Positions 1-28,472 of a stretch of DNA of 64,000 nucleotides are shown piece by piece. This DNA is from an uncultured Actinomycetota bacterium. Lineage in GTDB: Bacteria; Actinomycetota; Actinomycetes; Streptosporangiales; Streptosporangiaceae. Position numbers and translations under genes: made by a program. The stretch covers positions 5,149,209 through 5,213,208 of the forward strand of contig CAVRGA010000002.1 in assembly GCA_963720575.1 (NCBI GenBank), in the 5' to 3' direction. The notes under the pieces are model-generated. The model searched no databases. It was given only the letters and a program-made list of their open reading frames with translations, and was not told the origin of the DNA. Position 1 is the stretch's first letter. The number at the start of each line of letters is the position of its first letter.

Positions 1-99
1 GCGCAGGGCCAGCAGGCTGGCCGTCGCGCAGCCCGCTGGCCCGCCTCCCACGACCACCGCGTCGAACTGGGAACTGTGGTCCACCTCGGACACCCCTTC
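1..99 (-). CDS. FAD-dependent oxidoreductase/monooxygenase, N-terminal fragment. The gene continues beyond the window start.
   Basis: Minus-strand translation of 1-99 gives ...VSEVDHSSQFDAVVVGGGPAGCATASLLALR. This is a classic GxGxxG dinucleotide-binding N-terminus. It is in frame to position 1 without a stop. Confidence 0.4.
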
Positions 100-197
100 C
101 GGGGGTAGCAGTCTGTGCCGGCCGACGGATGGCTTGTTTACTTGACTCGCATGCTACGCGGCCAGCCCGCTAGGGGGCCGCGGATGGCCGGGCGCGT

Positions 198-1226
198 TCA
201 CTGCTCCAGCCGCTGTGCCAGATCCAGCCAGGACCTGGCATTGACCCTGGCAAGGTGGGCGATCGATGAGGCGCGATGGGCGGGAATATGCGGCACGCTT
301 TGCTCAATGGCCCTGATGCCCAGCGTGCAGGTGTGCAGCCACCGGATGATGCCGCGGCCTTTCTCGTTATATCTCAGCGCCGGGTCGCGGCTGAGCTTCT
401 GCACTATAGATTCCGCGATGCTGATTGACGTTGCCGCGGTACCGGCCGCGGCGAGGTCGGCTGGGCTAGCGGATTCGGCGCCCTGCGCCTCCGCCTGGCC
501 CGTGTGCAGCCTGGTCGGCTCGGCCTCCTGGCCGTCCTCGCTGGCGCTGTCGCGCTGGGCAGGCACAGGGTCCTGGCCGCGCCGCAGCCTGGCCCGCACG
601 TCCCTGACCGTCGCCGTGGAGATGCCGGCGGATCTTGCGATGTCCCTGAGCGACGCGGCCGGGTCGTGCGCGAGCAAGTCCGCGGCGATCCTGCGTCCAT
701 CGGCGCTGTTCAGCGGCCGGACGCGGCCGTCGCGGCCCGTCCTGGCGGTCAACTGGGTATTTGCGCCAGTCGCACACTGGCGGAGCGCGCTGACCGTCTT
801 GTGCGACAGGCCGGCGGCGATCGCGATGCGCCGGTCGGACCAGTGCGGATGGGACTGCAGTATCCGCACCGCCGCGCCCTTCCGCTCGGCCAGAGTTAAA
901 GGCAATCCGTGAACGACGTTCTCATGTACGGCAATGACAAACGCCTCGTGTTCATCTCCCTTGAACCATCGCACTAGAATGGTGTCCTCGCCGCGGAGCG
1001 TGGCGGCTCGAAGCCGATGCATTCCGTCTATGACTCGCATACTCGGCCAATGTACAATTATCGGCGGAAAGGAGACGTCCAAGTCAGCCAGGCTACGGAC
1101 GTAGCGAGCGTTCAGGTCCCCGGCGCGCGGTGAGTCTCCTGGCCGCAGTGACGCGACCCGCACCCGGGCAGTGCCGTCGTCAGCTGGCTCAGCTTTCCAT
1201 GGGACGCGAATCATATCGACCGACAT
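198..1226 (-). CDS. ParB/Srx-like nuclease-domain protein with two HTH segments; putative regulator.
   Basis: 342-aa ORF. ParB/sulfiredoxin-like core IIVHWPSMRVIDGMHRLRAATLRGE, then two HTH-like stretches (AIAAGLSHKTVSALRQ; IARSAGISTATVRDVRARL). Sits divergently from the flavoenzyme gene. Confidence 0.55.
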   Translation of the reverse strand: MSVDMIRVPWKAEPADDGTARVRVASLRPGDSPRAGDLNARYVRSLADLDVSFPPIIVHWPSMRVIDGMHRLRAATLRGEDTILVRWFKGDEHEAFVIAVHENVVHGLPLTLAERKGAAVRILQSHPHWSDRRIAIAAGLSHKTVSALRQCATGANTQLTARTGRDGRVRPLNSADGRRIAADLLAHDPAASLRDIARSAGISTATVRDVRARLRRGQDPVPAQRDSASEDGQEAEPTRLHTGQAEAQGAESASPADLAAAGTAATSISIAESIVQKLSRDPALRYNEKGRGIIRWLHTCTLGIRAIEQSVPHIPAHRASSIAHLARVNARSWLDLAQRLEQ

Positions 1227-1594
1227 TGGTTAACACTTCCTATCTATGAATTCGATAGATGGAGAGATTGCCAGACGGCAACTAAATCGGCCATGGGTTA
1301 AATATAGTAAAAAATGATCACGAAACTGCGTTACGAATCATAACTTATCGTGAGGTTACGACAGAAGAGCCTGGCTGCGGGCCTGCCCGGGCCAGGCGTC
1401 GGCGCTGCCCGCCAGCCGGTACTGCTTGATGCCGCGTTTACGCAGGCCAGCCAGCCGAGGGGGACGAGGACGGGCCGGCAGCCGGCCCGGTGACGTGTAG
1501 AGAAAATGTATCGTTCCTGTACTGACATGCACGTTCCGGGCATCCTGGTAGCTGCCAGCGGCGCCGGTCGATACGAAATTGGCGGCAGAGGTCG
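1227..1594. promoter_or_regulatory. Divergent intergenic region, AT-rich, with a small inverted repeat.
   Basis: GC content drops sharply (…aaatatagtaaaaaatgatcacgaaactgcgttacgaatcataactta…). Inverted repeat TCTAT-gaattcg-ATAGA at about 1243-1259. Lies between divergently transcribed genes. Confidence 0.3.
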
Positions 1595-2764
1595 ATGAAG
1601 CAATTGCTTAATAGCACGTCGGAACAGGTCAGCGCTTTCGCGAAAATGTTGCGCAGCCGGGCGGCTGAAGTCGAGAAACTCGGCACGATGCCAGCCGACA
1701 TCGCGCAGGCAGGAAAAGACAGCGGATTGTTTATGCTCGCGGTACCGCAGTCATTAGGCGGACTTGAGCGCGATCCGCTCACGATCATCGCCATCATCGA
1801 GGAACTGAGCCGCGCTGACGGCTCAGGCGGCTGGACGACAGCCATCAGCAACAACTCGGTCTTTTTTGCCTGGCTAGAGCCGGGCGTGGCGAAGGAGATT
1901 CTCGGCGACAGCCCGCGGATCGCGGCGACCTGCATGTTCACTCCGGTGGGGCGGGCAGTCGCGAATGGCAGCGACGCGGACTTCTCGGTCAGCGGACGAT
2001 GGCCGTTCAGCAGCGGGTGCATGCATGCTGACTGGTTCCAGGCCGGCTCATTTGTCATGGATCGCTCCAATACCCCGGTCATCAGGAACGGACGGCCTGA
2101 CTATCGTTTCGCTTTCTTTCCCAGCGACCAGGCGGAGGTCATTCCGACTTGGGACGCGCTCGGCCTTCGCGGGACCGGCAGCCATTCCATCGCGACCAAA
2201 GGCATCACCGTCGCCGAGCAGCACACGGCCGCGATGTTCTTCGAGCAAGCGCCGCACGACGGGCCGCTGTGGCGAATCCCGGCCTTTACCCTCGCTGGCA
2301 TCTTCCTGGCCGGATTTCCGCTCGGCGTCGCTGCCCGTGCCCTTGACGAATTCCGCTCGCTGGCGCTGTCAAGGGTCCGCGCGCCTGCCACCCAGCCGCT
2401 TGGCTATGAGCCCGAGTGCCAGGTGGAGTATGCGCACAGCGAGGCCGTCGTCCGAGCGGCCAGGAGCCTGGTATTCGACTCGGTCGGGCGGCTGTGGGAG
2501 ATCGCCCTGCGCGGCGACGTTCCTGACGTGCAGGTACGCGCGGAGGTTCTGCTAGCGGTGCAGCACGCGATGCACTCGTGCGCGTCAGCGGTGGACGGCA
2601 TCTTGCGGCTGGCGGGCGCCAGGGCCGTTGCCAAGGGCAATGCACTCGAGCGCTGCTTCCGCGACATTCATACCGGCGCGCAGCACGTTTTCTTCAGTTC
2701 GGACGCGGCCAAGCGGTTCGCGAAGTGCCGCTTCGGCATCGAGCAGGACACCTTCATGATCTAA
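1595..2764 (+). CDS. Acyl-CoA dehydrogenase-family flavoenzyme; possibly a tailoring oxidase.
   Basis: 389 aa. N-terminal ACAD-like fold (FMLAVPQSLGG, GSGGWTTAISNNSV) and typical length. Confidence 0.7.
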   Translation: MKQLLNSTSEQVSAFAKMLRSRAAEVEKLGTMPADIAQAGKDSGLFMLAVPQSLGGLERDPLTIIAIIEELSRADGSGGWTTAISNNSVFFAWLEPGVAKEILGDSPRIAATCMFTPVGRAVANGSDADFSVSGRWPFSSGCMHADWFQAGSFVMDRSNTPVIRNGRPDYRFAFFPSDQAEVIPTWDALGLRGTGSHSIATKGITVAEQHTAAMFFEQAPHDGPLWRIPAFTLAGIFLAGFPLGVAARALDEFRSLALSRVRAPATQPLGYEPECQVEYAHSEAVVRAARSLVFDSVGRLWEIALRGDVPDVQVRAEVLLAVQHAMHSCASAVDGILRLAGARAVAKGNALERCFRDIHTGAQHVFFSSDAAKRFAKCRFGIEQDTFMI

Positions 2765-2766
2765 GG

Positions 2767-4545
2767 TCAGATCTCGAGTCGTATCTGGTAACGCTCGAGC
2801 CAGTCGTTTATTCGCAGCACCCGCTCCAGGCCGAGGCGCACGACCTGCGCGCCGTTGGCTGGCATCGCGGCGAGGGCGCGCACCGTGGGAAGGCTGAGCA
2901 GGCTAAATACCGGGGCTTCGCGCGCCGTGAGCAGAGCACTGACGGCGCGGCGCAACTGCTCGTGATATCGCGGGTCCTGGGTCGTCGGATACGGGCTTTT
3001 CGCCCTGGCAAGCACCGATGCCGGAAGCAGGTCGCTGGCTGCCGCGCGGAGCAGGCTCTTCTCGCGCCCGTCGAATGTCTTCATCGCCCAGGGCACATTG
3101 AAGACGTATTCGACGAGCCGGTGATCAAGGAATGGCACCCGCACCTCGAGACCCGCCGCCATGCTCATCCTGTCCTTGCGCTCGAGCGGCAGTGGCAGGA
3201 ACCGGGTCAGGTGCAGGTGGCAGATCTCCCGCATCCTTCTTTCCCGCTGGCTTTCGCCCGGCAGCCGGGGCACCTCACGCAGTGCCTGCGCGTACCTCTC
3301 CGCCTGATAACCGGGCACGTCGAGGCCCTTGAGCCGCGGCTCGTAAATGGAATGGCGACCCAGGCGACGGGTCATCGCCAGCCAGGGAAAGGTGTCTGCC
3401 TCGACCGATAGCTGGTCATGGAACCAGGCGTATCCGCCGAAGACCTCGTCCGCGCCTTCGCCAGACAAGGCGACGGTTGAGTGCGCACTTATGGTTTTGC
3501 AAAGCAGATACAGCGAGGTATCCATGTCGCCGAGTGGCGGCAGGTCCCTCGCCCGCAAGGTCGCCTCCCACGCGTGCGCGCTGGTCAGGTCATCGGCGGC
3601 GATGCGGAGATCGGTGTGCTCGGTGCCGACATGGGCGGCTACGTCGCGCACGTAAGGAGCGTCGGGGGTCTGGCGCATCTCGTCGGCGGTGAAGTCGAGT
3701 TCGACGGCGAAGGATCGCAGCGGGCCGAGACCTTCGCGCTGAAGTACCTGCTGCGCGAGCGCCACGATGGTGCTTGAGTCAAGGCCGCCTCCGAGCAGGG
3801 CGCACAGCGGCACGTCGGCGATCAGCTGACGCTCGATGGCGTCCTCGATCAGCTCGCGAACATTCGCGATCGTGGTGCGCAGGTCGTCCGGGTGCTCGCC
3901 GGCTCGCAGCGACCAGTAGCAGTGCTCGGAAACGTGACCGCGCCTGACGCGGAGGAAGTGCCCTGGCTTCACTTCCCGCATGCCCTTGAATACCGCTTCC
4001 CCTGGCGTGCGGGCCATCGACAGCATTTCGAGCGCGCCCCGGCCATCGACCACGGGCTCGGCAAGCCCGCTGGCGAAGATCGCCTTCGGCTCTGACCCGA
4101 AGATCACCCCGTTAGCCAGCCGGTAGTAGTAAAGCGGCTTGATGCCGAGCCGGTCACGGGCCAGCAGGAGCTCTTCTTTCTCCGGGTCCCAGATCGCGAA
4201 GGCGAACATCCCGTTGAGCCGGCGGACTATGTCCTCGCCCCAGCGCAGGTACCCGCGCAGCAAGACCTCCGTGTCACTTCTGGTCACGCACCCGGACAGC
4301 TGCGCGCGCAGCTCGCGGTAGTTGTAGATCTCGCCGCTGAATGACAGCACCGCGCCGGCCGCCATGGGCTGCCTGCCGCCTTCGACGTCGATGACCGCGA
4401 GGCGACGGTGACCGAGCACCGCGTGCGGCCCGGTCCAGCTCCCTTGCTGGTCGGGACCCCGGTGGACCATGGTGCCGGTCATGCGCAGCACAGTCTCCTG
4501 ATCGGGCGCGCCGTCAAAGTCGATCAAGCCGCAGATGCCGCACAT
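2767..4545 (-). CDS. asnB: Asparagine synthase (glutamine-hydrolysing), AsnB family.
   Basis: 592 aa. N-terminal MCGICG carries the Cys1 glutaminase nucleophile. The synthetase domain motif SGGLDSS is present. Length matches AsnB. Confidence 0.85.
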   Translation of the reverse strand: MCGICGLIDFDGAPDQETVLRMTGTMVHRGPDQQGSWTGPHAVLGHRRLAVIDVEGGRQPMAAGAVLSFSGEIYNYRELRAQLSGCVTRSDTEVLLRGYLRWGEDIVRRLNGMFAFAIWDPEKEELLLARDRLGIKPLYYYRLANGVIFGSEPKAIFASGLAEPVVDGRGALEMLSMARTPGEAVFKGMREVKPGHFLRVRRGHVSEHCYWSLRAGEHPDDLRTTIANVRELIEDAIERQLIADVPLCALLGGGLDSSTIVALAQQVLQREGLGPLRSFAVELDFTADEMRQTPDAPYVRDVAAHVGTEHTDLRIAADDLTSAHAWEATLRARDLPPLGDMDTSLYLLCKTISAHSTVALSGEGADEVFGGYAWFHDQLSVEADTFPWLAMTRRLGRHSIYEPRLKGLDVPGYQAERYAQALREVPRLPGESQRERRMREICHLHLTRFLPLPLERKDRMSMAAGLEVRVPFLDHRLVEYVFNVPWAMKTFDGREKSLLRAAASDLLPASVLARAKSPYPTTQDPRYHEQLRRAVSALLTAREAPVFSLLSLPTVRALAAMPANGAQVVRLGLERVLRINDWLERYQIRLEI

Positions 4546-4563
4546 CTGGTCTCCGTTCGTCAG

Positions 4564-5829
4564 TCAGGCTCCGGCGATGCCGGCTGACCTTGGCCGCAGC
4601 GCGAGCGGCACCCGCGCGTAACCGCGCACGACCTGATGTGGCCGGCGGACCGGCTGGCCGGCCACGTCGATCGAGCCGCACCTCGAAATCAGCTGCTCGA
4701 ATACGGCGGCGCCTTGCGCTCTGGCGAGCAGGACGCCGAGGCAGTGATGGGCACCGCCGCCGAAGCTGAGATGCGGATTAGGCCGCCTGGTCAGGTCAAG
4801 CCGGTCTGGCTCGCGGAACTGCGACGCGTCCCGGTTTGCCGACCCCAGCATGAGCAGGACGATCCTGCCGGGGCGGAGCACGCGCTCGCCGATCCCGACT
4901 GGCTGCGTGGTCACCCTCGTGACCCACTGGAGCGGCGCGTCGTACCTCAGCACCTCCTCGGCCGCCGCGGCCACGAGCGACGGGTCGGCGGCCAGCCTGG
5001 CGCGCTGATCCGGGTGCTGAGCGAGCGCCAGGCAGCCGCCGGCGATCAGGTGCATGGTCGTCTCGAAACCCGCGAAGAGCAGGAACGTCAGGTTGTCGAG
5101 TAGCTCATCCTCGGTAAAGCGATCGCCATCAGGCTGCGGCGCGATCGCTCGCGAGATCACGTCGTCGCCCGGCGTTTTCGCCCGCTCGCGCATCAGGTCG
5201 CGCAGGTAGGCCTTGAGCCAGCTCGCCTCGCGTTCCCCGTTGCCCTGCTCCGCATTGGTAAACGGGATCAAGATGATCGCCCGGCCGAGGTCGGCTGCCA
5301 CCGAGGCGACCTGCGCGCTGTCCGCCGCCGGAATGCCGAGCAGGTCGCACACGACGCGAAGCTGAAGCGGCAGCGCGAGGTCGCTGACGATCTCGGTCTC
5401 GGCCCGGTCAAGCGCGCTCGTGACGAGTTCGTCCGTCGTCTGGCGGATGACCGTTCGCATCCTGCGGACCAGGGGCGGATTGAGCACGCGGGACATCAGG
5501 CCGCGCAGCCTCGGGTGCTGCGGCGGGTCGAGCGCGGACAGCAGGTTGGGAAGCTCGGCGTTCGGCCGGGTGGCGGCGAGCAACCGCGCGCCCAGATCGC
5601 CTTGCCGCGCGGGCAAGCGGGGTGGCCGCATGCCGCCCGGCCTGCCGTGTCCGAGCCTCGGGTCGCGCAGCAGCGCGGATACCTCGGCGTACCTGGTCAC
5701 GCCCCAGGTGCCGGGCCCGCATCGGCAGAGCGGGCCGGCCTGCCGCAGGCTGGCGTAGGCCGGATAGGGGTCTTCGGGAAAGGCGGGGCTCAAGATGTTG
5801 AACTGCGGAGGGAGGGCTGCGGTCGTCAT
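4564..5829 (-). CDS. Cytochrome P450.
   Basis: 421 aa. Heme-binding loop FGGGAHHCLG. EXXR-type helix K (EEVLRYD). AGFETT I-helix motif. Confidence 0.85.
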   Translation of the reverse strand: MTTAALPPQFNILSPAFPEDPYPAYASLRQAGPLCRCGPGTWGVTRYAEVSALLRDPRLGHGRPGGMRPPRLPARQGDLGARLLAATRPNAELPNLLSALDPPQHPRLRGLMSRVLNPPLVRRMRTVIRQTTDELVTSALDRAETEIVSDLALPLQLRVVCDLLGIPAADSAQVASVAADLGRAIILIPFTNAEQGNGEREASWLKAYLRDLMRERAKTPGDDVISRAIAPQPDGDRFTEDELLDNLTFLLFAGFETTMHLIAGGCLALAQHPDQRARLAADPSLVAAAAEEVLRYDAPLQWVTRVTTQPVGIGERVLRPGRIVLLMLGSANRDASQFREPDRLDLTRRPNPHLSFGGGAHHCLGVLLARAQGAAVFEQLISRCGSIDVAGQPVRRPHQVVRGYARVPLALRPRSAGIAGA

Positions 5830-5844
5830 GCCTGCCTGACTAGG

Positions 5845-7047: not shown

Positions 7048-7126
7048 GTGCTTACTATCAGGCTGGCCCGAGGTTTATGGCAACACAATCAGTTACACTC
7101 TCATCTGCGGTCAGCAATTTCCGACG

Positions 7127-9489: not shown

Positions 9490-9697
9490 TCTGCTGTCAC
9501 GATCAAGGCTGTCAGTGGCCGCTAATGTCCGCTCAGCCTAACAATCCGTATTCGCAGGAAGCCAGGCCTTGCTGCCGTTTGCCTTCATTTTCCGACGCCG
9601 GAGGCCAGGTCATAAACAAGCACCCTCAACGGCCATCCAGCGCCAATGCCCGCTGGATTTCTGTCAAGATTGTCACATCTGTTTCTGAGGGCTGATC

Positions 9698-16000: not shown

Positions 16001-18026
16001 CGTCACCGACGGCGTCGACGTGCCGCGGTTCCGCGCTCATGCGAGAGCGCTCGACCAGGCATCGCTGCTGTCCATGGGACACGCGCTCGCGGCCGTCCGC
16101 CTGGCAGCCGGCGAGGTGCCCGGGCGGTATCGCAGCCTGATGCGCCGGTGGGAGCGCGCGATCGAGTCGGCCGGGCTGGCAGGAACGGGGCTGGCAAGCA
16201 CGGGGCCGACAGGCACGGAGGCGACGGCCGCGGCGGATGCCTGGCGGCGCGTCCGCGAGCGATGCGCCGATGACCCGGGGCTGATCTCCTATTTCGAGAC
16301 CTCAGCCCGCCAGCTGCCCGCCCAGCTGCTCGGCGCGACGGATCACCTGACACTGCTTTTCCCCGAGGGACAGCTGTCCGTATGCGAGGCGGTGTGGTCC
16401 GGGCCGTTAGCCGTCCGGTGGGCTAACCGCGCGGCCTCTGAACTGGTCCGCCAGCTGGCACCCGGCCGCGTGCTCGAGGTGGGCCTGGGCTCCGGCGGGA
16501 CCACTGCCGAGCTGCTCGCGGCGCTGCCTGAGGTCTCGTGCACGCTGACCGACCTTTCGCCGCTGTTCGTAACGGCCGCGCGAGACCGCTTCACGGCGCG
16601 GCCAGGACTGCGCTTCGCCGTGTTCGACATCACGCAGGACTACCGGGCTCAGGGGTTCCTGCCCAGCTCCTACGACGTGATCGTCGCTGGTGACGTCCTG
16701 CATGCCTGCTGCGACGTCCCCGACGTGCTCGCCAGGCTCGCCGAGCTGCTCGTGCCCGGCGGATGGCTGATCCTCACCGAGGTCACCAGGGAGCATCTGC
16801 CTTTCATGATCTCGCTGGAATTCCTGCTGCAGATCGACTTCGCTGACCAGCGCCGGGACGGTGACGACTGGTTCTTTACCGAGCCCCAGTGGCGCCAGCT
16901 GCTCGCCGAGGCGGGCGCCGGCACGGTACTGAGCCTGCCAGCCGACAGCCACGGGATCGTCGCCGAGTCTGGCCTGCGGGTCTTCGCTGCCCAGGTCAAG
17001 ACCGACCGGGTGCCTGTGTCCGAGTCCGGCCTGCGCGCGCATCTCGCGCAGCGGCTGCCTGACTACATGCTGCCCGCGCATGTCCAGGTCGTCGACGCGC
17101 TGCCGCTAAGCCAGAACGGCAAGATCGACCAGCGGGTTCTGGCGAGCTGGCTACCGCCGCTTCGCACCGGAGAAGCCGCGGTGCAGGTGAGCGCAAGCCA
17201 GCTCGAGGCGACCATGGCGACGCTGTGGGCAGAAGTGCTCGGACTGCCAGGCGTCGGCCTTGACCAGGGCTTTGTCGCTCTTGGCGGTGACTCGCTGCTC
17301 GCCGCGCGGCTGGCTGGCCGTATCCGCGAGGAGCTGTCACTGGCCACGCCTTTCGACACCGTGCTGCAGCAGGTTCTGGAAGGGCCGACCGTGGCCGGGC
17401 TCGCCGCCTGGATCGTCGCGCACGAGCCGCCCCGCGGGCTGACGGATGAGCCTGGCGACGCGGACGCGGGCGGGCAGCCAGCCCTGGCGATCAGGAACCT
17501 CGGCGGCAGCAGGACCGGCGAGGCGTGCGTGCTCATCCACGACGGCAGCGGCACCATCGCCTGCTATCAGCCGTACCTGGCCGCGCTCAGCGAGGACGGG
17601 CGGCTAGGCCAGCTGGCGGGACTTGAACTGGCGGACCCGTCCGGTTACCTCGCGCTCGATCCCGAGGTCGTCATCGGGCAGCTCGCCGACGACTGCGCGG
17701 ACGCGCTGCTCGATGCCGGATACCTCAGCGTGCGCATCGCCGGGCAAGGCCAGGGCGCCATTATCGCGATGGAGGTCGCCAGGCGCCTGGTCGAGGCAGG
17801 CGCCGACGTTCACCGGCTCGTCCTCGTCGGGCCCGCTGTCACCGGTCAGGACGACAGCCCGCTGTCCGCGCACCTTGCCGAGGCGCTCGGGCGCTGGCAG
17901 CCGCTCGCTTACTCGGGCGACCTCACCTTGGCCGGCGCTGGCGACGAGCGGGCCGCCGCGGCCTGCAGGCAGGCATGCCTTGGCACGGTCAGCCTGGCCG
18001 CGCACCTGGTCGAGGCGCTGCGATGA
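13045..18026 (+). CDS. NRPS, PchF-like: Cy domain, Cys-type A domain with embedded methyltransferase, PCP, TE-like domain. Apparent frame break near 14230-14280.
   Basis: ORF 13045-14322 is Cy N-terminal (DFLIVDFVS). ORF 14280-18026 continues the Cy in another frame (FPVVFTSAVGADPD…QVWIDCQ). A domain (YVIYTSGSTGAPKGV; FDLSVYD). MT insert between A8 and A10 (RVLEVGLGSGG). A10 PLSQNGKIDQ. PCP LGGDSLLAARL. TE-like domain with GQGQG where GxSxG is expected. GTGA overlap with the upstream NRPS. Confidence 0.8.
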
Positions 18027-19087
18027 CACGCCGCCTCAAGGTGGTGGTATGCGGCACCGCGTTCGGCCAGGTGTACCTGGAAGGCCTTCGCCACCTGGAG
18101 GCGAAATACGAGCTCGTCGGCGTGCATGCCAGGGGCAGCGCGCGATCGGAGGCCTGCGCCGAGCACTACGGTGTCCCGCTGCTCACCGACCTCGACGACG
18201 TGGACGCCGACGTCGCCTGTGTCATCGTCAGGGGCGGCCTGCTCGGGGGAGCAGGCAGCGACATGGCCCTGCGCCTGATGGCGCGTGGCGTCCACGTGCT
18301 GCAGGAGCATCCGCTGCATCACGACGAGCTTGCCGCGTGCCTGGCTCAGGCTCGCAAGAGCGGCGTGATCTACCAGCTCAACACCTTCTACGCCGACCTG
18401 CCCGCTGTTCGGCGGTTCCTCGCGGCCGCGCACGAGCTGACCGTCGAGCGGCCGCCCGTGTGCATCGACGCGATGACCGGCTTTCAGGTCGCCTACGCAC
18501 TGCTCGACATCATCGGCGCGGTGCTCGGGCGGCTGCGGCCCTATAGCTTCAGCGCGGCTCCGCACGACGGGACCTCGAGGCCGTTCCGCAGCCTCGACGG
18601 CCGGATCGGCGGAGTACCGGTCACGATCAGGATCGAGAACAGGATCGACCCGGCCGATCCCGACAGCCGGACGCGAATGCTGCACCGGATCTCTGTGGGC
18701 ACCGATAGCGGCGATCTCACCCTGGTCACCTCGGTCGGCCCGATCGTCTGGTCAGCGCGGCCGGGCATCCCGGGCCAGGTGCGGGACGCCGGTGCCGCCC
18801 CGCTGTTCGCTGGCCGGCCGCTCAGCGGCGGCGGCGCCTCGGCGAGGGTGATCGGGCCAGCGACAGCTCCCGATCAGGAGCAGGTGTTCGGCTCGCTCTG
18901 GCCCAGGACCGCCGCCAGGGCACTGGACCGGCTGCACGATGCTGTACTGACCCGGGCAGATCCGCTGCGACGCGGGCAGTATTACCTGGCGCTATGTCAA
19001 ATGTGGCAGGGCATCGCAGCGCAGCTAGGTCCGCCCGAACTCATGACTAGCCAGCCGCGCCTACTTACTGACAAGTCGCGGAACTAA
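18023..19087 (+). CDS. Thiazolinyl imide reductase (PchG/Irp3/YbtU family, Gfo/Idh/MocA-like).
   Basis: Starts MTRRLKVVVCGTAFGQVYLEGL with ATGA overlap to the NRPS stop. Length about 355 aa and position directly after the TE match pchG and ybtU. Confidence 0.7.
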   Translation: MTRRLKVVVCGTAFGQVYLEGLRHLEAKYELVGVHARGSARSEACAEHYGVPLLTDLDDVDADVACVIVRGGLLGGAGSDMALRLMARGVHVLQEHPLHHDELAACLAQARKSGVIYQLNTFYADLPAVRRFLAAAHELTVERPPVCIDAMTGFQVAYALLDIIGAVLGRLRPYSFSAAPHDGTSRPFRSLDGRIGGVPVTIRIENRIDPADPDSRTRMLHRISVGTDSGDLTLVTSVGPIVWSARPGIPGQVRDAGAAPLFAGRPLSGGGASARVIGPATAPDQEQVFGSLWPRTAARALDRLHDAVLTRADPLRRGQYYLALCQMWQGIAAQLGPPELMTSQPRLLTDKSRN

Positions 19088-19170
19088 ATGCCCGTCGCGG
19101 CGGCTATACCGTTGCCCTTGACTCTCCTAAGTCGCCAGCGGAGTATATCAACGGAAGAAAGGTCGCCGTC

Positions 19171-19926
19171 GTGCCTGGTCCAGTGACAGTGATCACCGGT
19201 GCGGGATCTGGCTTAGGCCGGGCGCTTGCGGTGAATCTCGCGAGGCAGGATCATCGCCTGGTGCTAGTTGGCCGGAGAAAGGAGCGGCTAGCTGAAGTCC
19301 GGAATTCCTGCCTGGTCGCGGGAACGGCCCGAGAAGACATACTGCTGGTGCCGGCGGATATAACCGCGCGGTCAGCTCCGACGCAGATTATCGATGAGAC
19401 AATGAACGCGTACGGTCAGGTCGACGCGCTTATAAACAATGCCGGCCAGGCTCGATTCGCACTGCTCGAAAATGCACTCGCCGAAGACATAGAATGCATG
19501 ATAGCGACACATCTGACAGCACCGGCTGCCCTCATTCGCGAGGCTACGCCGGCGTTGCGAGCCGCCAAGGGGATCGTCGTGAACATTGGCTCCATAGGTG
19601 GCGTGCTTGCGCTGCCCGGACGCGCTCTGTATGGCGCGACCAAAGCGGCACTGCATCATTTCACTCGCTCGCTAGCGCGTGAACTGGCTCCGGATATCCG
19701 CGTCAACGCTGTCGTGCCAGGAGCGATTGACACCGAGATGTACGACCATCTTGGTCTTTCGGTGGCTGAGGTCGCTGCCCTGCGCGACGAAATGATCCTC
19801 ACCACCCCGCTTGGCCGCATGGGCGCACCGGAGGACGTCGTGCCCTGGATCGACCTGATGCTCAAGCCCGCCGGGCACTGGATGACCGGCAGCCTGGTCG
19901 TGATAGACGGCGGGCGTTCCTGCTGA
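19171..19926 (+). CDS. Short-chain dehydrogenase/reductase (SDR).
   Basis: 251 aa. TGAGSGLGRA cofactor motif. YGATKAA catalytic Y-x3-K. Good RBS (ggaagaaagg) upstream of the GTG start. Confidence 0.85.
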   Translation: MPGPVTVITGAGSGLGRALAVNLARQDHRLVLVGRRKERLAEVRNSCLVAGTAREDILLVPADITARSAPTQIIDETMNAYGQVDALINNAGQARFALLENALAEDIECMIATHLTAPAALIREATPALRAAKGIVVNIGSIGGVLALPGRALYGATKAALHHFTRSLARELAPDIRVNAVVPGAIDTEMYDHLGLSVAEVAALRDEMILTTPLGRMGAPEDVVPWIDLMLKPAGHWMTGSLVVIDGGRSC

Positions 19927-19962
19927 TGAGGCAGCACTGACACCGACCTGGAAGGATTTGCA

Positions 19963-20850
19963 ATGACGAGCACGCAGGAGAAAGACACCGTCTACTCAAG
20001 TCCGAAGTTCCGTGACATCGATGTCGGCGCCATTATGCGAGACGGTCATCCTGACGTAGCCGACGGTGATGAGTTCATCATTTCTGTGGTAAGGGAACTG
20101 CATGCCAAGGCGAATCGCCGGCTGCGTATCATCGATGTCGGGTCTGGCTCCGGCGATCTGAGTCTCATGCTGGCAAGGCAACTGCCTGAAAGCGAGATCG
20201 TCGCCAACGACATAGAGCCCAATCCGGTCGCTCAGGCAACAGCTAAGCTCGCCGATTTCCCTCATGCCTCGGTATACGACCAGCCGTTTGAGAGCTGGGA
20301 TGGCACCGCCGACGCGGTTATCTCGTGGGGCTCGCATCATCACCTTAGCCATGACTATCTCTCACACGTCAAGCAGGTCCTGGCTCCTGGCGGGGTGCTG
20401 ATCATAGGCGACGAGTTCTGCCCGGAATACCTGACCAACGCGGACCGAGAGCGGCTGGCGGCGGCCAGTGAGATAATCATCGAAGACGGCTACATCTTCG
20501 ATAATGATGCCGACGCGACCGCTTTTCGCGACAACCGCGTGATGCCGCAGTGGACCGCGGGGCTGGAAGACGCCAGGCGCAAGGCGCTCTGGACCTGGTA
20601 CAAGTTTGTGGGCGACTATGCGGTCAGCAAAGGACACTGGCCGGTCCTGATCGCCGAGCTGGGCATTGCACGAGACGATCTGGTCACCGAATTCGACGAG
20701 GAGCACAAGACTTCGCCGTATCTGCTGGAGCGTGAATTGGAGTTGAATGGCTTCGAGGTAGCGCGGAAAAAAGTGATCGGTGACCGTGAGCCCGCGCTGC
20801 TGAGCTTCGTCGTGTACGTATGCCGAGTGGGACCGGAGAATGCCGGATGA
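19963..20850 (+). CDS. Class I SAM-dependent methyltransferase.
   Basis: 295 aa. Motif I IIDVGSGSGDLS. Acidic residue at end of beta-2 (VANDIEP). Confidence 0.75.
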   Translation: MTSTQEKDTVYSSPKFRDIDVGAIMRDGHPDVADGDEFIISVVRELHAKANRRLRIIDVGSGSGDLSLMLARQLPESEIVANDIEPNPVAQATAKLADFPHASVYDQPFESWDGTADAVISWGSHHHLSHDYLSHVKQVLAPGGVLIIGDEFCPEYLTNADRERLAAASEIIIEDGYIFDNDADATAFRDNRVMPQWTAGLEDARRKALWTWYKFVGDYAVSKGHWPVLIAELGIARDDLVTEFDEEHKTSPYLLERELELNGFEVARKKVIGDREPALLSFVVYVCRVGPENAG

Positions 20851-22031
20851 CATACTTGCCCGCCATGACGCGGACAGTGCGCCCGGTTGACGGCGTACGA
20901 GCCTCCTCGTTGCATGCCATCCACCGGCTCATGGAGAGCAGGCAGGGAGAGGCATTCCCTTTGCATGTCGGCGAGCCCTACCTGCGCATGCCCGAGGTGG
21001 CGCTTGATGCGTACGTCCGCGCTCTGCGCGACGGCAAGACCAGATACACCGACGCGCCAGGGATGCTGGCCTTGCGGGAGGCGCTTGCCGCGCGCCTGGC
21101 CGGGAACGGCGCTCCTGCTGTCGAGCGGTTGTTCGTCACCCCTGGCTCGTGCCAGGCCATCGCCGCGGTGCTGCAGTCGGTGGCGATTCCCGGCGGGATC
21201 GCCGTGCTGCCCCGCGTGCACTGGCCCATGCACCTGCAGCAGGTGGTGCTGGCTGGCCTGACACCTCGGTTCGTCGACATGTCCGGTCACCGCGCCGAGG
21301 TGACCGGCGCGCTCGAAGAGCTAGCCGGGCTAGGTGCGTGCGTGATCATCGTGAACTCGCCAGCCAATCCGGCGGGTACCGTACTCGACCGCGAACTGGT
21401 CGGCGCGATCCACGACTGGGCGAGCCGCCGCGGAATCTGGGTGATCAGCGACGAGGCGTACGAGGACTTCACCTACGAGGGGTCAGCGCCCGCGACGGCC
21501 GAGTTCGACCTGCGGCTGCCTGCTCCCGAGCGCGTGGTGTTCTCCGTGCACACCTTTTCCAAGGGCTACTCGATGACTGGCTGCCGCCTCGGCTATGTCG
21601 CCGCGCCGACGAAGGAGGCCGCTGACCGCCTGACCAGGATCCAGGAGGCGACGCTGGTGTCGCCGAGCACGCCGGTGCAGTATGCGGGCCTCGCGGCGCT
21701 GACCGACCAGCACTGCCTGCGCGAGCACAGCCAGTACGTCAGGATGACCAGGGACGCGATGCTCGCCGAAGCGTGGCTCGCTGGCCAGGTGCGGGCGTCG
21801 CCAGCCGGCGGCTGGTACATCCTCATCGATCTGGCCAGGTACACCGCTGACACCGACTGGCTGTGCCGCGAGCTGATCGAGCAGACAGGAGTCGCGGTCG
21901 CTCCCGGCGAGGATTTCTTCCCGCCCGGCGACCTGGCGGGACGTAGCATGGTCCGGCTGACGATGTGTCATGAACGCGAGATGACGTTGGAGGGAATCCA
22001 CAGGCTCCGCGAGTTTCTCGAGGCCCGATGA
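20847..22031 (+). CDS. PLP-dependent aminotransferase class I/II.
   Basis: About 395 aa from MTYLPAM, with ATGA overlap to the upstream stop. Aspartate-aminotransferase-family fold (NSPANPAGTV, SKGYSMTGCRLGY PLP-Lys region). Confidence 0.8.
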   Translation: MTYLPAMTRTVRPVDGVRASSLHAIHRLMESRQGEAFPLHVGEPYLRMPEVALDAYVRALRDGKTRYTDAPGMLALREALAARLAGNGAPAVERLFVTPGSCQAIAAVLQSVAIPGGIAVLPRVHWPMHLQQVVLAGLTPRFVDMSGHRAEVTGALEELAGLGACVIIVNSPANPAGTVLDRELVGAIHDWASRRGIWVISDEAYEDFTYEGSAPATAEFDLRLPAPERVVFSVHTFSKGYSMTGCRLGYVAAPTKEAADRLTRIQEATLVSPSTPVQYAGLAALTDQHCLREHSQYVRMTRDAMLAEAWLAGQVRASPAGGWYILIDLARYTADTDWLCRELIEQTGVAVAPGEDFFPPGDLAGRSMVRLTMCHEREMTLEGIHRLREFLEAR

Positions 22032-22706
22032 CCGGTCAGATACGCCAGCTGGCGGCGACGTACGCGGGCTACATGCGGCTGGACGGCCTGTTGGCATTGC
22101 AGCATCCGCGTACGCCCGCCATGGATGCCGCGACATGGGCGTCCGAGCACTTTTTCATCGTCTGCCATCAGGCCAGCGAGCTATGGGCGACCCAGATTCT
22201 CATCGACATCAGCGGGGCTGCGCGAAGCGCCGAAGCCGGCGACTGGGAGTTCGCGGTCGTCGCGCTCACCCGCGCATGCGCCCTGGTAGATCTGGTCAGG
22301 CAGAGCCTGACCTCGCTGCTCTGCATGCCGGTCGCGGACTTCATGCGCTTTCGCGGAGCGCTCGAAGGTGCCAGCGCGGCGGAGTCACGGCAGTTCGCCG
22401 CGCTGCTCCGGTGCGCGCGCGAGCCTGCGGTGCAGTCGCTCAGGGCCAGCCTGGCCACCGCGTTGCCCGCGACGGCGCCCGGCGGCAAGCACGGGTGCGG
22501 GTCATGCCCGGCACGCCGAGTGCGCGGCCGCCCGTGCGCTGGAGTCGCTGCTCGACGAGGTGCGCGACTGGCGGCGAATGCACGCGGAGATCGCCCGCCA
22601 TTTCATCGCCGACCTGCCGGGTACCGGTGGCACGAGCGGTGTCAGCTATCTGGTGCGTGATGACGACGACCTCGGGTGGCACGAAGGTCAGCAAAGAGAT
22701 CATTAA
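22028..22706 (+). CDS. Tryptophan 2,3-dioxygenase-like protein. Apparent frame break near 22480-22510.
   Basis: Frame A 22028-: EHFFIVCHQASELWATQILID and FMRFRGALEGASAAESRQFAALL, TDO signatures. Frame B to 22706: DWRRMHAEIARHFIADLPGTGGTSGVSYL, TDO C-terminal GTGGSSG motif. ATGA overlap with the aminotransferase stop. Confidence 0.6.
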
Positions 22707-25180: not shown

Positions 25181-25211
25181 CAGGTTCGCTTCCCGCGGCC
25201 CGGCCGAGAAG

Positions 25212-26756: not shown

Positions 26757-26789
26757 GCGTTCTCCAGACCGGAACGCACCGCGTACGGG

Positions 26790-28232: not shown

Positions 28233-28472
28233 CGAGATCACCGCCCCATGGATTCGTCGTCGCCTGGTTAGCTGACGCCTGACGCGCCGCCCGGGTTTAC
28301 CTCCCAGGTGCCTCTGCGGCCGATTAGCACGGCACTGCGGGGCGGTCACCGCTTATATCACGGTAAAGTCGCACCCTTTGGGGGGCCGCTCCGGTTATGC
28401 GCCGGGCTACGATCGGAGCATGGGCGAGCAGTTGCCGTCTACGGCGCACGCATCCGGAGAGCGTCCGGGGCC

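What the first reader, a model, noticed from the sequence alone, without database searches (positions are those of the whole stretch)
1..22706. Pyochelin/coelibactin-type aryl-thiazoline NRPS cluster with an unusual tailoring set that includes a tryptophan 2,3-dioxygenase.
The core is PchE-like (ArCP-Cy-A-PCP), PchF-like (Cy-A with embedded MT-PCP-TE) and PchG-like reductase. Both A domains carry FDLSVYD, the D-L-x-x-Y start of the Cys specificity code, which predicts an aryl-thiazoline-(N-methyl)thiazolidine scaffold.

The surrounding genes are unusual for this class: two P450s, a COMT-like O-methyltransferase, AsnB, an ACAD-like flavoenzyme, a stand-alone C domain, an SDR, a methyltransferase, a class I/II aminotransferase and a TDO. 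A TDO-plus-aminotransferase pair is how kynurenine-derived aryl acids (3-hydroxyanthranilate or quinaldic/kynurenic-type starters) are made in other NRPS pathways. The aryl starter here may therefore be Trp-derived rather than salicylate.

No salicylate synthase or aryl-AMP ligase lies inside the window, and the cluster may extend left of position 1 (partial FAD-oxidoreductase gene).
Basis: partly seen in the sequence, partly recalled or inferred. Interest (0 to 1): 0.6.

Follow-up and report, generated by a model that had tools for sequence, protein, structure and literature searches.

The report
Tryptophan-primed pyochelin-like thiazoline gene cluster
An actinomycete gene cluster joins a pyochelin-type two-cysteine peptide assembly line to a tryptophan-to-quinoline-acid gene cassette related to the one used by quinomycin-type antitumour antibiotics, a combination found in many related bacteria for which I found no described product.

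Summary
Window 1-22706 holds ArCP-Cy-A-PCP, Cy-A(MT)-PCP-TE, a thiazolinyl imine reductase and every listed tailoring gene. Both A domains carry Cys codes (DLYDLSLIWK, DLYNLSLIWK).

Corrections:
- The PchF-like gene (about 14242) and the TDO (extra C at 22507) are frameshifted. An independent assembly of the same organism has an intact TDO, and the differences cluster at GCCGGC, so these look like assembly errors.
- The "ACAD-like" gene is an HsaA/HpaH-type flavin monooxygenase.
- The cut gene at position 1 is a flavin-dependent halogenase.
- The cis TE has no catalytic Ser/Asp/His.

TDO and aminotransferase belong to a translationally coupled SDR-MT-AT-TDO cassette. This cassette sits beside the same NRPS genes in relatives. 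A sister form lacks the MT but carries a Trp-type A-PCP, a P450 and a type II thioesterase, which matches the published 3-hydroxyquinaldic acid gene set (TioK/I/Q/H/G/F).

A matching aryl-AMP ligase is encoded on what appears to be the same 5.8-Mb contig, outside the window. Its pocket motif is not the salicylate or DHB type.

The likely product is a decorated quinaldoyl-thiazoline-N-methylthiazolidine. I rate it a new variant of known kinds, of moderate interest.

The parts
1..93 (-). First 31 codons of a 410-aa flavin-dependent halogenase; the rest lies left of the window
   Evidence: Logan contig L001 is 99.9% identical to window 1-4333 and extends 1490 nt to the left. Matches Pfam Trp_halogenase and the NCBIfam CmlS-like model. 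Carries GGGPAG and GWLWFIP motifs. A 55% identical ortholog lies about 0.8 kb upstream of the cassette in L084.
198..1226 (-). NovG/StrR-like pathway regulator
   Evidence: PF27534 NovG_helical is on record for this product. A 47% identical ortholog lies in the M. malaysiensis cluster, L005.
1595..2764 (+). Two-component flavin-dependent monooxygenase, oxygenase subunit (ACAD fold, HsaA/HpaH-C2/XiaF-like); probable aromatic hydroxylase
   Evidence: Pfam Acyl-CoA_dh_2 and Acyl-CoA_dh_N. NCBIfam HsaA 1e-46 and HpaH 1e-29. PDB best hits are Rv3094c, HsaA, XiaF and C2-HpaH.
2767..4545 (-). Glutamine-dependent asparagine synthetase homolog (AsnB); possible amidating enzyme
   Evidence: TIGR01536 scores 478 bits against a cut-off of 267. 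N-terminal MCG is present.
4564..5829 (-). Cytochrome P450 a
   Evidence: Pfam p450. PDB hits are generic. Only 30-34% identical to the cassette-linked P450s of L004, L005 and L090.
5845..7047 (-). Cytochrome P450 b (paralog of a)
   Evidence: Pfam p450. Same best PDB hit as P450 a.
7127..8224 (+). Methyltransf_2 (COMT-like) O-methyltransferase with dimerisation domain
   Evidence: A 41% identical homolog lies in L005.
8200..9489 (-). Stand-alone condensation domain with HHxxxD (HHLITDT); candidate trans-acting release or amide-forming enzyme
   Evidence: Pfam Condensation 1e-60 over the full length. Motif seen. A 39% identical ortholog lies directly upstream of the PchE-like gene in L005. PDB hits are ordinary C domains.
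9698..13048 (+). PchE/HMWP2-like NRPS: ArCP-Cy-A(Cys)-PCP
   Evidence: Pfam. ArCP motif GIDSIRIM, Cy motif DMLVSDALS, PCP motif GGDSL. Specificity code DLY(D)LSLIWK. Best relatives are 66, 55 and 52% identical.
13045..18026 (+). PchF-like NRPS: TubC_N docking-Cy-A(Cys, embedded MT)-PCP-degenerate TE. Read as two ORFs because of a 1-nt frameshift at about 14242
   Evidence: Pfam. Cy motif DFLIVDFVS. Code DLYNLSLIWK. Frame change located between 14241 and 14244 against the intact 1658-aa ortholog of L083. TE lacks Ser, Asp and His.
18023..19087 (+). Thiazolinyl imine reductase (PchG/Irp3 family)
   Evidence: Pfam GFO_IDH_MocA and Irp3-like_C. TIGR01761 scores 315 bits against a cut-off of 189. 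Start codon overlaps the NRPS stop codon.
19171..19926 (+). SDR oxidoreductase, first gene of the cassette (TioH/Swb2-like by position and family)
   Evidence: Pfam adh_short. 73, 66, 51, 59 and 58% identical to the cassette SDRs of L083, L084, L085, L004 and L005. 47% identical to the SDR of the A-PCP/P450/TEII-type cassette in L090.
19963..20850 (+). Class I SAM methyltransferase; the cassette member that distinguishes this variant
   Evidence: Pfam Methyltransf_25/11/12. It is the most conserved cassette gene: 80, 74 and 50% identity in L083, L084 and L085. Also present in L087, L088, L089 and L099. Absent from L004, L005, L090 and L092.
20847..22031 (+). Class I/II PLP aminotransferase (TioG/Swb1-like)
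   Evidence: Pfam. The exact 394-aa product is P0001. Its start overlaps the MT stop and its stop overlaps the TDO start. About 90 homologs at 45% identity or more, mostly from actinomycetes and soil metagenomes.
22028..22706 (+). Short (225-aa) TDO-family haem dioxygenase (TioF-like), frameshifted in this assembly by an extra C at 22507
   Evidence: Pfam Trp_dioxygenase. Intact in the independent assembly L082. The distal His (VCHQASELW), Arg (FMRFR), proximal His (WRRMH) and GTGGTSG motifs align with solved TDOs. Scores below the NCBIfam equivalog cut-off, 85 against 391 bits.
23983..24420 (+). Small VOC/glyoxalase-family protein; possibly a cluster member (self-resistance?)
   Evidence: Pfam Glyoxalase. 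A 68% identical ortholog follows the TDO in L083. Glyoxalase-family genes also lie beside the cassette in L084 and L085.

Best explanation
This is a biosynthetic gene cluster of about 24 kb. It runs from a halogenase gene just left of window position 1 to the TDO at 22706, and probably on to the glyoxalase-family gene at 24420.

Starter unit (inferred). The four coupled genes SDR-MT-AT-TDO turn tryptophan into a quinoline-2-carboxylic (quinaldic) acid.
- The TDO opens the indole ring.
- The aminotransferase makes the 2-oxo acid, which ring-closes onto the aniline nitrogen.
- The SDR removes the 4-oxygen, as TioH/Swb2 do in 3-hydroxyquinaldic acid biosynthesis.
- The methyltransferase takes the place of the carrier-protein-bound beta-hydroxylation (A-PCP + P450 + thioesterase) seen in the sister variant. 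It most likely puts a methyl on the beta-carbon, giving a 3-methyl rather than a 3-hydroxy acid.

Loading (inferred). A dedicated aryl-AMP ligase, encoded outside the window on what appears to be the same 5.8-Mb contig, loads the acid onto the N-terminal ArCP.

Assembly (shown by domain content). Two Cy-A(Cys)-PCP modules add two cysteines as thiazolines. The PchG/Irp3-like reductase reduces the second ring to a thiazolidine. The A-embedded MT methylates it, as in pyochelin.

Decoration (inferred). The halogenase, the HsaA-like hydroxylase, two P450s and the O-methyltransferase decorate the aromatic ring.

Release (inferred). The cis TE is catalytically dead, so release must occur in trans. 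Here that is probably the stand-alone C domain, forming an amide, with AsnB as a possible amidating partner. Some relatives carry a type II thioesterase instead.

Shown versus inferred. Shown: gene and domain content, Cys codes, cassette conservation and linkage, loss of TE residues, and the frameshift at 22507 being absent from a second assembly. Inferred: the chemistry of the cassette, the role of the MT, the release route and the product.
For: NRPS core:
- Domain order and motifs.
- Cys specificity codes.
- The reductase scores above its family cut-off.

Cassette linkage:
- SDR-MT-AT-TDO with overlapping stop and start codons recurs next to PchE/PchF/PchG-like genes. It is seen in L083 (64-80% identity, same order from NRPS to TDO), L084 and S. 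capoamus L085/L086.
- It also occurs on short metagenome contigs L087, L089 and L099.

Sister variant:
- SDR-AT(-TDO) without MT comes with an A-PCP and a P450 in L004, L005 and L090, with a type II thioesterase in L004 and L090, and with a P450 and a thioesterase in L092. No TDO was detected in L005.
- The L004 A-PCP is 50-54% identical to A-PCP didomains of Kribbella sandramycini, Kribbella sp. CA-293567, Streptomyces echinatus and Actinomadura sp. ATCC 31491. One homolog is named L-tryptophan-[L-tryptophyl-carrier protein] ligase by JGI.
- Its code is DAWT(I/V)TGVGK, an aromatic amino acid type.

Literature:
- The 3HQA pathway is TioK (A-T), TioI (P450), TioQ (TEII), TioF (TDO), TioG (aminotransferase), TioH (oxidoreductase) and TioJ (ligase) (PMC4052310).
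- In the sandramycin cluster san7, san8 and san9 are the TioH, TioG and TioF homologs. If numbered in map order, that is the same order as here (PMC9962454).

Ligase:
- In-cluster orthologs occur in L005, L004 and L167, which is the same contig as L084.
Several of these contigs are only 10-16 kb.
- Protein P0148 is listed on a contig of the same length (5,803,652 bp) as the window's aminotransferase. It is 62-68% identical to the in-cluster ligases.
- All four ligases retrieved in full, and the L005 ligase, share the motif HNAALGCPG. From memory, DHB ligases have HNY..SSPG and salicylate ligases have HNF..A(C/S)PG at this place.
- P0148 scores below the DHB-ligase equivalog cut-off.

TDO: haem and substrate residues are conserved.

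MT role:
- The window's P450s are only 30-37% identical to the cassette-linked P450s of the sister variant, whereas true orthologs run 52-59%.
- No A-PCP from the source contig appears among the top 120 homologs.
- An aminotransferase plus a SAM C-methyltransferase has precedent in beta-methylation of indolepyruvate, StnR/StnQ1 (PMC4742848).

Frameshifts:
- The window has an extra C at 22507 compared with L082, where the TDO is intact.
- Seven of nine window-versus-Logan differences, and the 14242 site, lie within 4 nt of GCCGGC. Only 3.3% of window positions do.
Against: - The window itself has no aryl-AMP ligase, no Trp A-PCP, no MbtH, no type II thioesterase and no kynurenine formamidase. 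The position of P0148 in the genome could not be obtained, so it might belong to another cluster.
- I could not compare the cassette proteins directly with TioF/G/H, Swb1/2 or San7-9, because no reference sequences were available. The link rests on family, gene order and the company the genes keep.
- The TDO-like protein is short and divergent: 85 bits against an equivalog cut-off of 391, and the position I recall as Tyr113 of Xanthomonas TDO is Phe. It might catalyse a different haem-dependent oxidation.
- One relative (L084) has a small CM_2 (PchB-fold) gene beside the cassette, which could point to salicylate.
- The MT's substrate is not established by any test. PDB hits are uninformative.
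- The PchF frameshift at 14242 has no direct confirmation from a second assembly.
Confidence: 0.6

Rival explanations
1. The starter is salicylate or another ordinary aryl acid made elsewhere. The SDR-MT-AT-TDO cassette would then make a different, tryptophan-derived building block. One possibility is an amine or acid that the stand-alone C domain joins to the thiazolidine carboxyl at release. Another is a separate small metabolite.
For: - The ligase lies outside the window.
- The dead cis TE plus a free C domain call for a nucleophile partner.
- L084 has a PchB-fold CM_2 gene beside the cassette.
Against: - The cluster-linked ligases share a pocket motif, HNAALGCPG, that by my recollection differs from the DHB and salicylate types.
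- In the sister variant the full 3HQA set accompanies the same ArCP-Cy NRPS. The reviews read here describe 3HQA only as an NRPS starter unit loaded by a TioJ-type ligase.
- No isochorismate synthase was seen in any locus examined.
- The free C domain is missing from L084 and L085, which still carry the cassette.
Confidence: 0.15
2. The MT-AT-TDO trio works as in beta-methyltryptophan and oxindole pathways. The aminotransferase plus MT would make beta-methyltryptophan. The TDO-like haem enzyme would oxidise the indole without the kynurenine-to-quinoline route. From memory, MarE of maremycin biosynthesis does this. The aryl or acyl unit would then be indole- or oxindole-derived.
For: - An aminotransferase plus a SAM C-methyltransferase make beta-methyltryptophan in streptonigrin biosynthesis (PMC4742848).
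- The TDO-like protein is divergent and scores below the equivalog cut-off.
- The MT is the best conserved gene of the cassette.
Against: - The SDR-AT-TDO order and the homology (41-47% identity) to the MT-less cassettes that come with a TioK-like A-PCP, a P450 and a TEII point to quinaldic acid chemistry.
- The ligase pocket motif is identical in MT-containing and MT-less clusters, which implies acids of similar shape.
- No cupin epimerase is present.
Confidence: 0.15
3. The cluster is a decaying, non-functional remnant in this strain. It has two frameshifted genes, a dead TE, and no ligase, A-PCP or thioesterase.
For: - Frameshifts in the PchF-like gene and in the TDO.
- TE without a catalytic triad.
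- Genes present in relatives are missing here.
Against: - The 22507 frameshift is absent from an independent assembly of what appears to be the same organism (99.9% identical DNA).
- The differences between assemblies concentrate at GCCGGC, as does the 14242 site, which is typical of systematic sequencing error.
- The TE is degenerate in all four family members examined, so that is a family trait.
- All other ORFs are intact, and a cognate ligase exists in the genome.
Confidence: 0.05

Closest known systems
Pyochelin synthetase system (PchD/E/F/G) and the yersiniabactin HMWP2/Irp3 system
   Same: - ArCP-Cy-A(Cys)-PCP first module.
- Second Cy-A(Cys) module with an MT embedded in the A domain.
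- PchG/Irp3-family thiazolinyl imine reductase.
- Aryl acid loaded in trans by a DhbE-family ligase.
- Best hit outside actinomycetes is Yersinia HMWP2 at 39% identity.
   Different: - No salicylate synthesis genes.
- The ligase pocket motif is not the salicylate or DHB type (the reference motifs are from memory).
- The cis TE lacks Ser, Asp and His.
- A tryptophan-processing cassette, a halogenase, hydroxylases, AsnB and a free C domain are attached.
3-Hydroxyquinaldic acid starter-unit pathway of thiocoraline, SW-163 and sandramycin (TioF-K and TioQ; Swb1, 2 and 10-14; San3-9)
   Same: - TDO, class I/II aminotransferase and short-chain oxidoreductase lie together, in the order of san7-8-9.
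- A TioJ-like aryl-AMP ligase is present in the genome.
- The sister clusters (L004, L005, L090) also carry the Trp-type A-PCP and the P450, and L004 and L090 a type II thioesterase.
   Different: - In the window the A-PCP, the beta-hydroxylase P450, the thioesterase and MbtH are absent. A SAM methyltransferase is inserted between the SDR and the aminotransferase.
- The acid would prime a thiazoline assembly line, not a bisintercalator depsipeptide NRPS.
Desferrithiocin (from memory)
   Same: A heteroaromatic ortho-hydroxy acid (3-hydroxypicolinate) is capped with a cysteine-derived thiazoline as a metal-binding unit. A 3-hydroxyquinaldoyl-thiazoline from the sister clusters would be its benzo-fused analogue.
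   Different: Desferrithiocin has one thiazoline only and a pyridine rather than a quinoline ring.
Beta-methyltryptophan formation by StnR/StnQ1 (streptonigrin) and MarG/MarI (maremycin)
   Same: A PLP aminotransferase is paired with a SAM methyltransferase acting on a tryptophan-derived 2-oxo acid (PMC4742848).
   Different: No cupin epimerase is present. The pair is embedded between an SDR and a TDO. Homology of the MT to StnQ1 or MarI was not tested.

Membership tests
Pyochelin/yersiniabactin-type aryl-capped thiazoline NRPS | Loading module ArCP-Cy-A-PCP with a DxxxxD Cy motif | tested here: met
   Pfam domains. Motifs GIDSIRIM and DMLVSDALS.
Pyochelin/yersiniabactin-type aryl-capped thiazoline NRPS | Cysteine-specific A domains | tested here: met
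   DLY(D)LSLIWK and DLYNLSLIWK, against the canonical Cys code DLYNLSLIWK.
Pyochelin/yersiniabactin-type aryl-capped thiazoline NRPS | Thiazolinyl imine reductase (PchG/Irp3) and an A-embedded methyltransferase | tested here: met
   TIGR01761 scores 315 bits against a cut-off of 189. The MT domain lies between AMP-binding and AMP-binding_C.
Pyochelin/yersiniabactin-type aryl-capped thiazoline NRPS | Catalytically competent C-terminal thioesterase | tested here: not met
   GQGQG stands in place of GxSxG, and the C-terminal half carrying Asp and His is missing. The same holds in L083 and L084; in L085 the Ser is likewise absent, but its C-terminal region is longer and was not compared with active thioesterases.
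Pyochelin/yersiniabactin-type aryl-capped thiazoline NRPS | Salicylate synthesis genes and a salicyl-AMP ligase in the cluster | tested here: not met
   None in the 64 kb or in the 1.5 kb to the left. The genome's ligase P0148 has HNAALGCPG and scores below the DHB-ligase cut-off.
3-Hydroxyquinaldic acid (3HQA) starter pathway | TDO + aminotransferase + oxidoreductase (TioF/G/H) encoded together | tested here: met
   SDR, AT and TDO at 19171-22706. They are 41-47% identical to the corresponding genes of L090, which also carries an A-PCP, a P450 and a TEII. Order as san7-8-9. No direct comparison with the Tio, Swb or San sequences was possible.
3-Hydroxyquinaldic acid (3HQA) starter pathway | Trp-activating A-PCP didomain (TioK) with an MbtH-like partner | tested here: not met
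   Absent from the window. No homolog from the source contig appears among the top 120 hits. Present in L004, L005, L090 and L091.
3-Hydroxyquinaldic acid (3HQA) starter pathway | P450 beta-hydroxylase (TioI) and releasing type II thioesterase (TioQ) | tested here: not met
   No thioesterase gene is present. The two P450s are only 30-37% identical to the cassette-linked P450s of L004, L005 and L090, whereas orthologous genes run 52-59%.
3-Hydroxyquinaldic acid (3HQA) starter pathway | Aryl-AMP ligase (TioJ) that loads a free or N-terminal carrier | tested here: inconclusive
   Not in the window. An ortholog, P0148, is listed on a contig of the same length as the one carrying the window's aminotransferase. 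Its position is unknown.
Flavin-dependent halogenases | GxGxxG and WxWxIP motifs | tested here: met
   GGGPAG and GWLWFIP are present in the 410-aa protein read from L001. CmlS-like model 4e-65, below its equivalog cut-off.
Beta-methyltryptophan cassette (StnR/StnQ1, MarG/MarI) | Homology of the MT to indolepyruvate C-methyltransferases | not testable with these tools
   No reference sequences were available. PDB hits to the MT are unnamed SAM methyltransferases.

The most novel reading that the evidence does not exclude
The MT-containing cassette is a carrier-protein-independent route from tryptophan to a C-methylated quinaldic acid. It has replaced the TioK/TioI/TioQ beta-hydroxylation trio. 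It feeds a pyochelin-like line that has lost its own thioesterase and releases its product in trans. The products would be an undescribed family of halogenated quinoline-thiazoline-thiazolidine compounds, acting as metal binders or DNA binders. The linked glyoxalase/bleomycin-resistance-type gene fits the DNA-binding idea. The family is spread through rare actinomycetes and soil metagenomes.
Probability: 0.3. Interest if true: 0.7.

Novelty: new variant of a known kind. Interest (0 to 1): 0.55.

Why it matters
The cluster joins two well-studied biosynthetic modules that, as far as I could find, have not been reported together. One is the quinaldic acid chromophore pathway of DNA-bisintercalating antibiotics. 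The other is the pyochelin-type thiazoline siderophore line.

The family is not a one-off. About 90 aminotransferase homologs at 45% identity or more were found, and many lie on the same contigs as the ligase. No product has been assigned in the literature I could search, so it is a concrete and sizeable target for genome mining.

The two cassette forms, MT versus A-PCP + P450 + thioesterase, offer a natural experiment on how a beta-substituent is installed on a tryptophan-derived acid. The serine-less TE raises a testable question about chain release.

On the practical side, the finding shows that the source assembly carries motif-linked indel errors that create false pseudogenes.

Tried and rejected
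- Exact-product look-ups failed for the 425-aa Cy ORF, the 210-aa TDO ORF, the 403-aa aminotransferase ORF, the 1116-aa NRPS and the ligase P0148. The megabase source contig was never returned. So the sequence more than 1.5 kb left of the window, and the position of the ligase, remain unknown.
- PDB sequence searches with both P450s, the aminotransferase, the MT and the C domain gave only generic relatives and no functional hint.
- The metagenome scan used generic aminotransferase patterns, and most of its 80 loci were unrelated. Eleven of the top thirteen (L087-L095, L097, L099) were screened by tblastn, and L087-L094 and L099 carried cassette genes.
- Literature searches found no matching product. 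Terms tried: hydroxyquinaldic or quinaldic acid with thiazoline, thiazolidine or siderophore; TDO with thiazoline; pyochelin with kynurenine; methylquinaldic or methylkynurenine. Thiazohalostatin, a compound from Actinomadura, was considered, but the review that lists it gives no structure or gene cluster.
- A pyrrole-type starter (prolyl-S-PCP dehydrogenase plus halogenase) was rejected. The ACAD-fold protein is of the HsaA/HpaH type, and no Pro-specific A domain exists.
- A 3-hydroxyanthranilate starter was rejected for lack of a kynureninase.
- Rfam and tRNA scans of the window found nothing.

Full report
**What is in the sequence**

In map order they are:
- a NovG/StrR-like regulator (198-1226, minus strand);
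- an ACAD-fold protein (1595-2764);
- AsnB (2767-4545, minus);
- two P450s (4564-5829 and 5845-7047, minus);
- a Methyltransf_2 O-methyltransferase (7127-8224);
- a free condensation domain (8200-9489, minus);
- an ArCP-Cy-A-PCP synthetase (9698-13048);
- a TubC_N-Cy-A(MT)-PCP-TE synthetase (13045-18026);
- a thiazolinyl imide reductase (18023-19087; TIGR01761, 315 bits against a cut-off of 189);
- an SDR (19171-19926);
- a class I methyltransferase (19963-20850);
- a class I/II aminotransferase (20847-22031);
- a TDO-family protein (22028-22706).

The ACAD-fold protein is best described as the oxygenase part of a two-component flavin monooxygenase. Its closest families and structures are HsaA, HpaH-C2, XiaF and Rv3094c.

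A Logan contig of what appears to be the same organism overlaps window 1-4333 at 99.9% identity and reaches 1490 nt further left. It shows that the gene cut by position 1 is a 410-aa flavin-dependent halogenase with GGGPAG and GWLWFIP motifs. Beyond it lies the end of a CarboxypepD_reg-domain gene, which looks unrelated to secondary metabolism.

To the right of the TDO come a DUF427 gene, a small glyoxalase-family gene and ORFs without family matches. No salicylate synthase, aryl-AMP ligase, A-PCP didomain, MbtH or thioesterase gene lies anywhere in the 64 kb.

**Two frameshifts, probably artefacts**

The PchF-like gene reads as two ORFs. Against the intact 1658-aa ortholog of the closest relative (L083), residues 10-398 match window 13072-14241 in one frame. 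Residues 400-1658 match 14244-18023 in another frame.

The TDO also changes frame. A second Logan contig (L082, window 17969-23786, 99.93% identical) lacks one C at window 22507 and encodes an intact 225-aa TDO.

Seven of the nine differences between the window and the two Logan contigs, and the 14242 site, lie within 4 nt of GCCGGC. Only 3.3% of window positions do. This pattern fits systematic sequencing error at one motif.

The errors are not all on one side. At 4220 the Logan contig breaks AsnB while the window keeps it whole. I therefore treat both frameshifts as assembly errors. The evidence is direct for 22507 and indirect for 14242.

**The assembly line**

- The first synthetase has an EntB-type aryl carrier motif (GIDSIRIM), a Cy motif (DMLVSDALS) and a PCP.
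- The second has a TubC-type docking domain, a Cy motif (DFLIVDFVS), an MT inserted in the A domain as in PchF, and a PCP.
- Aligned to GrsA (the reference sequence was recalled from memory), the specificity codes are DLYNLSLIWK for the second A domain and DLY(D)LSLIWK for the first. The relatives examined have N at the deviating position. Both codes specify cysteine.

One feature departs from pyochelin. The C-terminal TE is a stump. Aligned with four active type II thioesterases, the GHSxG nucleophile motif is GQGQG in the window, GERQG in L083 and GAGPA in L084. The half of the domain that carries Asp and His is missing. In L085 the corresponding stretch is GAHGG, again without the Ser. Chain release must therefore come from another protein.

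**The tryptophan cassette and its relatives**

A scan of one genome per species found only distant relatives of the first synthetase:
- a Streptosporangiaceae MAG (66%);
- Plantactinospora siamensis (55%);
- Microtetraspora malaysiensis (52%);
- then Yersinia HMWP2 (39%).

Homologs of the aminotransferase are more numerous. About 90 reach 45% identity or more, from actinomycetes and soil metagenomes. Their contexts fall into two forms.

Form 1, as in the window, is SDR-MT-AT-TDO with overlapping stop and start codons.
- It sits next to PchE-, PchF- and PchG-like genes in L083. There the genes are 64-80% identical and in the same order from the NRPS to the TDO, followed by the glyoxalase-family gene.
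- It sits next to the same genes in the metagenome contig L084, which also has the halogenase at 55% identity.
- It occurs in Streptomyces capoamus (L085/L086, 43-51% identity).
- It also appears on short contigs L087, L089 and L099.

Form 2 lacks the MT.
- It has an A-PCP didomain and a P450 in L004, L005 and L090, and a type II thioesterase in L004 and L090.
- L091 has the A-PCP directly before the aminotransferase. L092 has a P450 and a thioesterase.
- No TDO was detected within the L005 locus.

In the loci seen here, the MT and the A-PCP with its linked P450 are mutually exclusive.

**Link to 3-hydroxyquinaldic acid**

Reviews of the bisintercalator antibiotics describe the 3HQA pathway in these steps (PMC4052310):
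1. Trp is loaded by an A-T protein (TioK).
2. A P450 (TioI) beta-hydroxylates it.
3. A type II thioesterase (TioQ) releases it.
4. A TDO (TioF) opens the ring.
5. An aminotransferase (TioG, Swb1) transaminates and the product cyclises.
6. An oxidoreductase (TioH, Swb2) reduces it.
7. An AMP ligase (TioJ) activates the acid.

In the sandramycin cluster the homologs of TioH, TioG and TioF are san7, san8 and san9. If the genes are numbered in map order, this matches the SDR-AT-TDO order found here (PMC9962454).

The A-PCP of the P. siamensis cluster is 50-54% identical to A-PCP didomains of several strains whose names suggest bisintercalator production. These are Kribbella sandramycini, Kribbella sp. 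CA-293567, Streptomyces echinatus and Actinomadura sp. ATCC 31491. CA-293567 is documented as a sandramycin producer; the other links are from memory. A JGI homolog is named L-tryptophan-[L-tryptophyl-carrier protein] ligase. Its code, DAWT(I/V)TGVGK, fits an aromatic amino acid.

Form 2 is thus the 3HQA gene set joined to a thiazoline-forming NRPS. The window's cassette is its homolog: 41-47% identical to L090 and 52-59% identical to L004 and L005.

The TDO-like protein keeps the distal His, the substrate Arg, the proximal His and the GTGG(S/T)SG motif of solved TDOs. It is short, however, and scores well below the equivalog cut-off.

**The missing ligase**

- DhbE-family ligases lie inside the clusters of M. 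malaysiensis, P. siamensis and the L084 contig.
Several are only 10-16 kb long.
- One ligase, P0148, is listed on a contig of 5,803,652 bp, the same length as the contig carrying the window's aminotransferase. It is 62-68% identical to the in-cluster ligases.
- All four ligases retrieved in full, and the L005 ligase, share HNAALGCPG at the place where DHB and salicylate ligases have, from memory, HNY..SSPG and HNF..A(C/S)PG. The smaller residues would fit a larger, bicyclic acid.
- P0148 is not in the window, and its position could not be retrieved.

**What the MT may do**

This part is inference. The window's two P450s are only 30-37% identical to the P450s linked to form-2 cassettes. No TioK-like A-PCP from the source contig appears among the top 120 homologs. 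So the carrier-bound beta-hydroxylation seems to be absent here.

An aminotransferase paired with a SAM C-methyltransferase is known to beta-methylate indolepyruvate (StnR/StnQ1, PMC4742848). I therefore propose that the MT installs a methyl at the carbon that becomes C3 of the quinoline. The result would be a 3-methyl rather than a 3-hydroxy acid. The identical ligase pocket motif in both forms fits acids of similar shape.

O- or N-methylation of a kynurenic-type intermediate cannot be excluded.

**Release and decoration**

The window has no thioesterase gene. It does have a free C domain with HHLITDT and an intact AsnB. A 39% identical C domain lies directly upstream of the PchE-like gene in M. 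malaysiensis. Release by amide formation is the most economical reading, but it is untested.

The halogenase, the HsaA-like hydroxylase, the P450s and the O-methyltransferase would decorate the aromatic ring. Apart from the halogenase (55% identical in L084), these genes are not conserved as orthologs in L084 or L085. They look like lineage-specific tailoring.

**Comparison with what is known**

The NRPS core works like PchE/F/G but fails two membership features: salicylate supply and an active TE. The cassette works like TioF/G/H but lacks TioK, TioI and TioQ and has gained an MT.

Searches of the paper library found no compound or cluster that combines a quinaldic acid with thiazoline or thiazolidine rings. 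The small 3HQA derivatives that are known are actinoquinolines and Ser, Gln and Cys amides.

I rate this a new variant of known kinds, with moderate interest.

**Limits**

- There was no direct sequence comparison with the reference Tio, Swb, San, Stn or Mar proteins.
- All chemistry is inferred from gene content.

Noticed in passing
window 39770-45845: A second biosynthetic locus. It holds a LanB-type lanthipeptide dehydratase (41937-44429, Lant_dehydr_N 4e-161), a separate Lant_dehydr_C protein (39770-40732) and a PCMT-family methyltransferase (44586-45845). The 40-42 kb stretch has an unusual GC skew of +0.21, and G+C reaches 0.74 at 42-44 kb. No precursor peptide was identified.
   Followed up: partly
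window 1477, 1484, 4220-4228, 18816, 22507, 23647, 23651 and about 14242: Differences between the window and independent Logan contigs of what appears to be the same organism cluster at GCCGGC sites. They include the indel that breaks the TDO. This suggests motif-linked systematic error, perhaps related to methylation, in one or both assemblies. Other apparent pseudogenes in this genome may have the same cause.
   Followed up: yes
window 12110-12112 (residue 805 of the first synthetase): The first A domain has Asp at specificity position 278 (VWDSVP). The relatives examined have Asn (WNSVP), a one-base difference. It could be a real substitution or another sequencing error.
   Followed up: partly
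window 24903-35271: Several long ORFs have no Pfam match: 24903-26756, 26790-28349, 28958-30337 and 33403-35271. They are followed by a 972-aa HerA/FtsK-like ATPase at 35287-38205.
   Followed up: no
L167 8992-9990 (same contig as L084): In a metagenomic relative, an AurF-like di-iron N-oxygenase gene sits directly before the cluster's aryl-AMP ligase. This hints at oxidation of an arylamine in that version of the pathway. The same pair occurs on Logan contig L168.
   Followed up: no
L090 4562-6518: An AlkZ-like DNA glycosylase and an AP-endonuclease-fold gene lie inside a cluster that carries the MT-less SDR-AT-TDO cassette with an A-PCP, a P450 and a thioesterase. This suggests a DNA-damaging product there.
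   Followed up: no
L084 7845-8120: A 91-aa CM_2 (chorismate mutase / PchB fold) gene lies immediately upstream of the cassette in one relative. It is absent from the window.
   Followed up: no
window 23133-23903: A DUF427 (NTP_transf_9) gene lies between the TDO and the conserved glyoxalase-family gene. It is not present at this place in the closest relative, L083.
   Followed up: partly
window 49818-52952: A 1044-aa protein with four fibronectin type III repeats. It appears unrelated to the finding.
   Followed up: no
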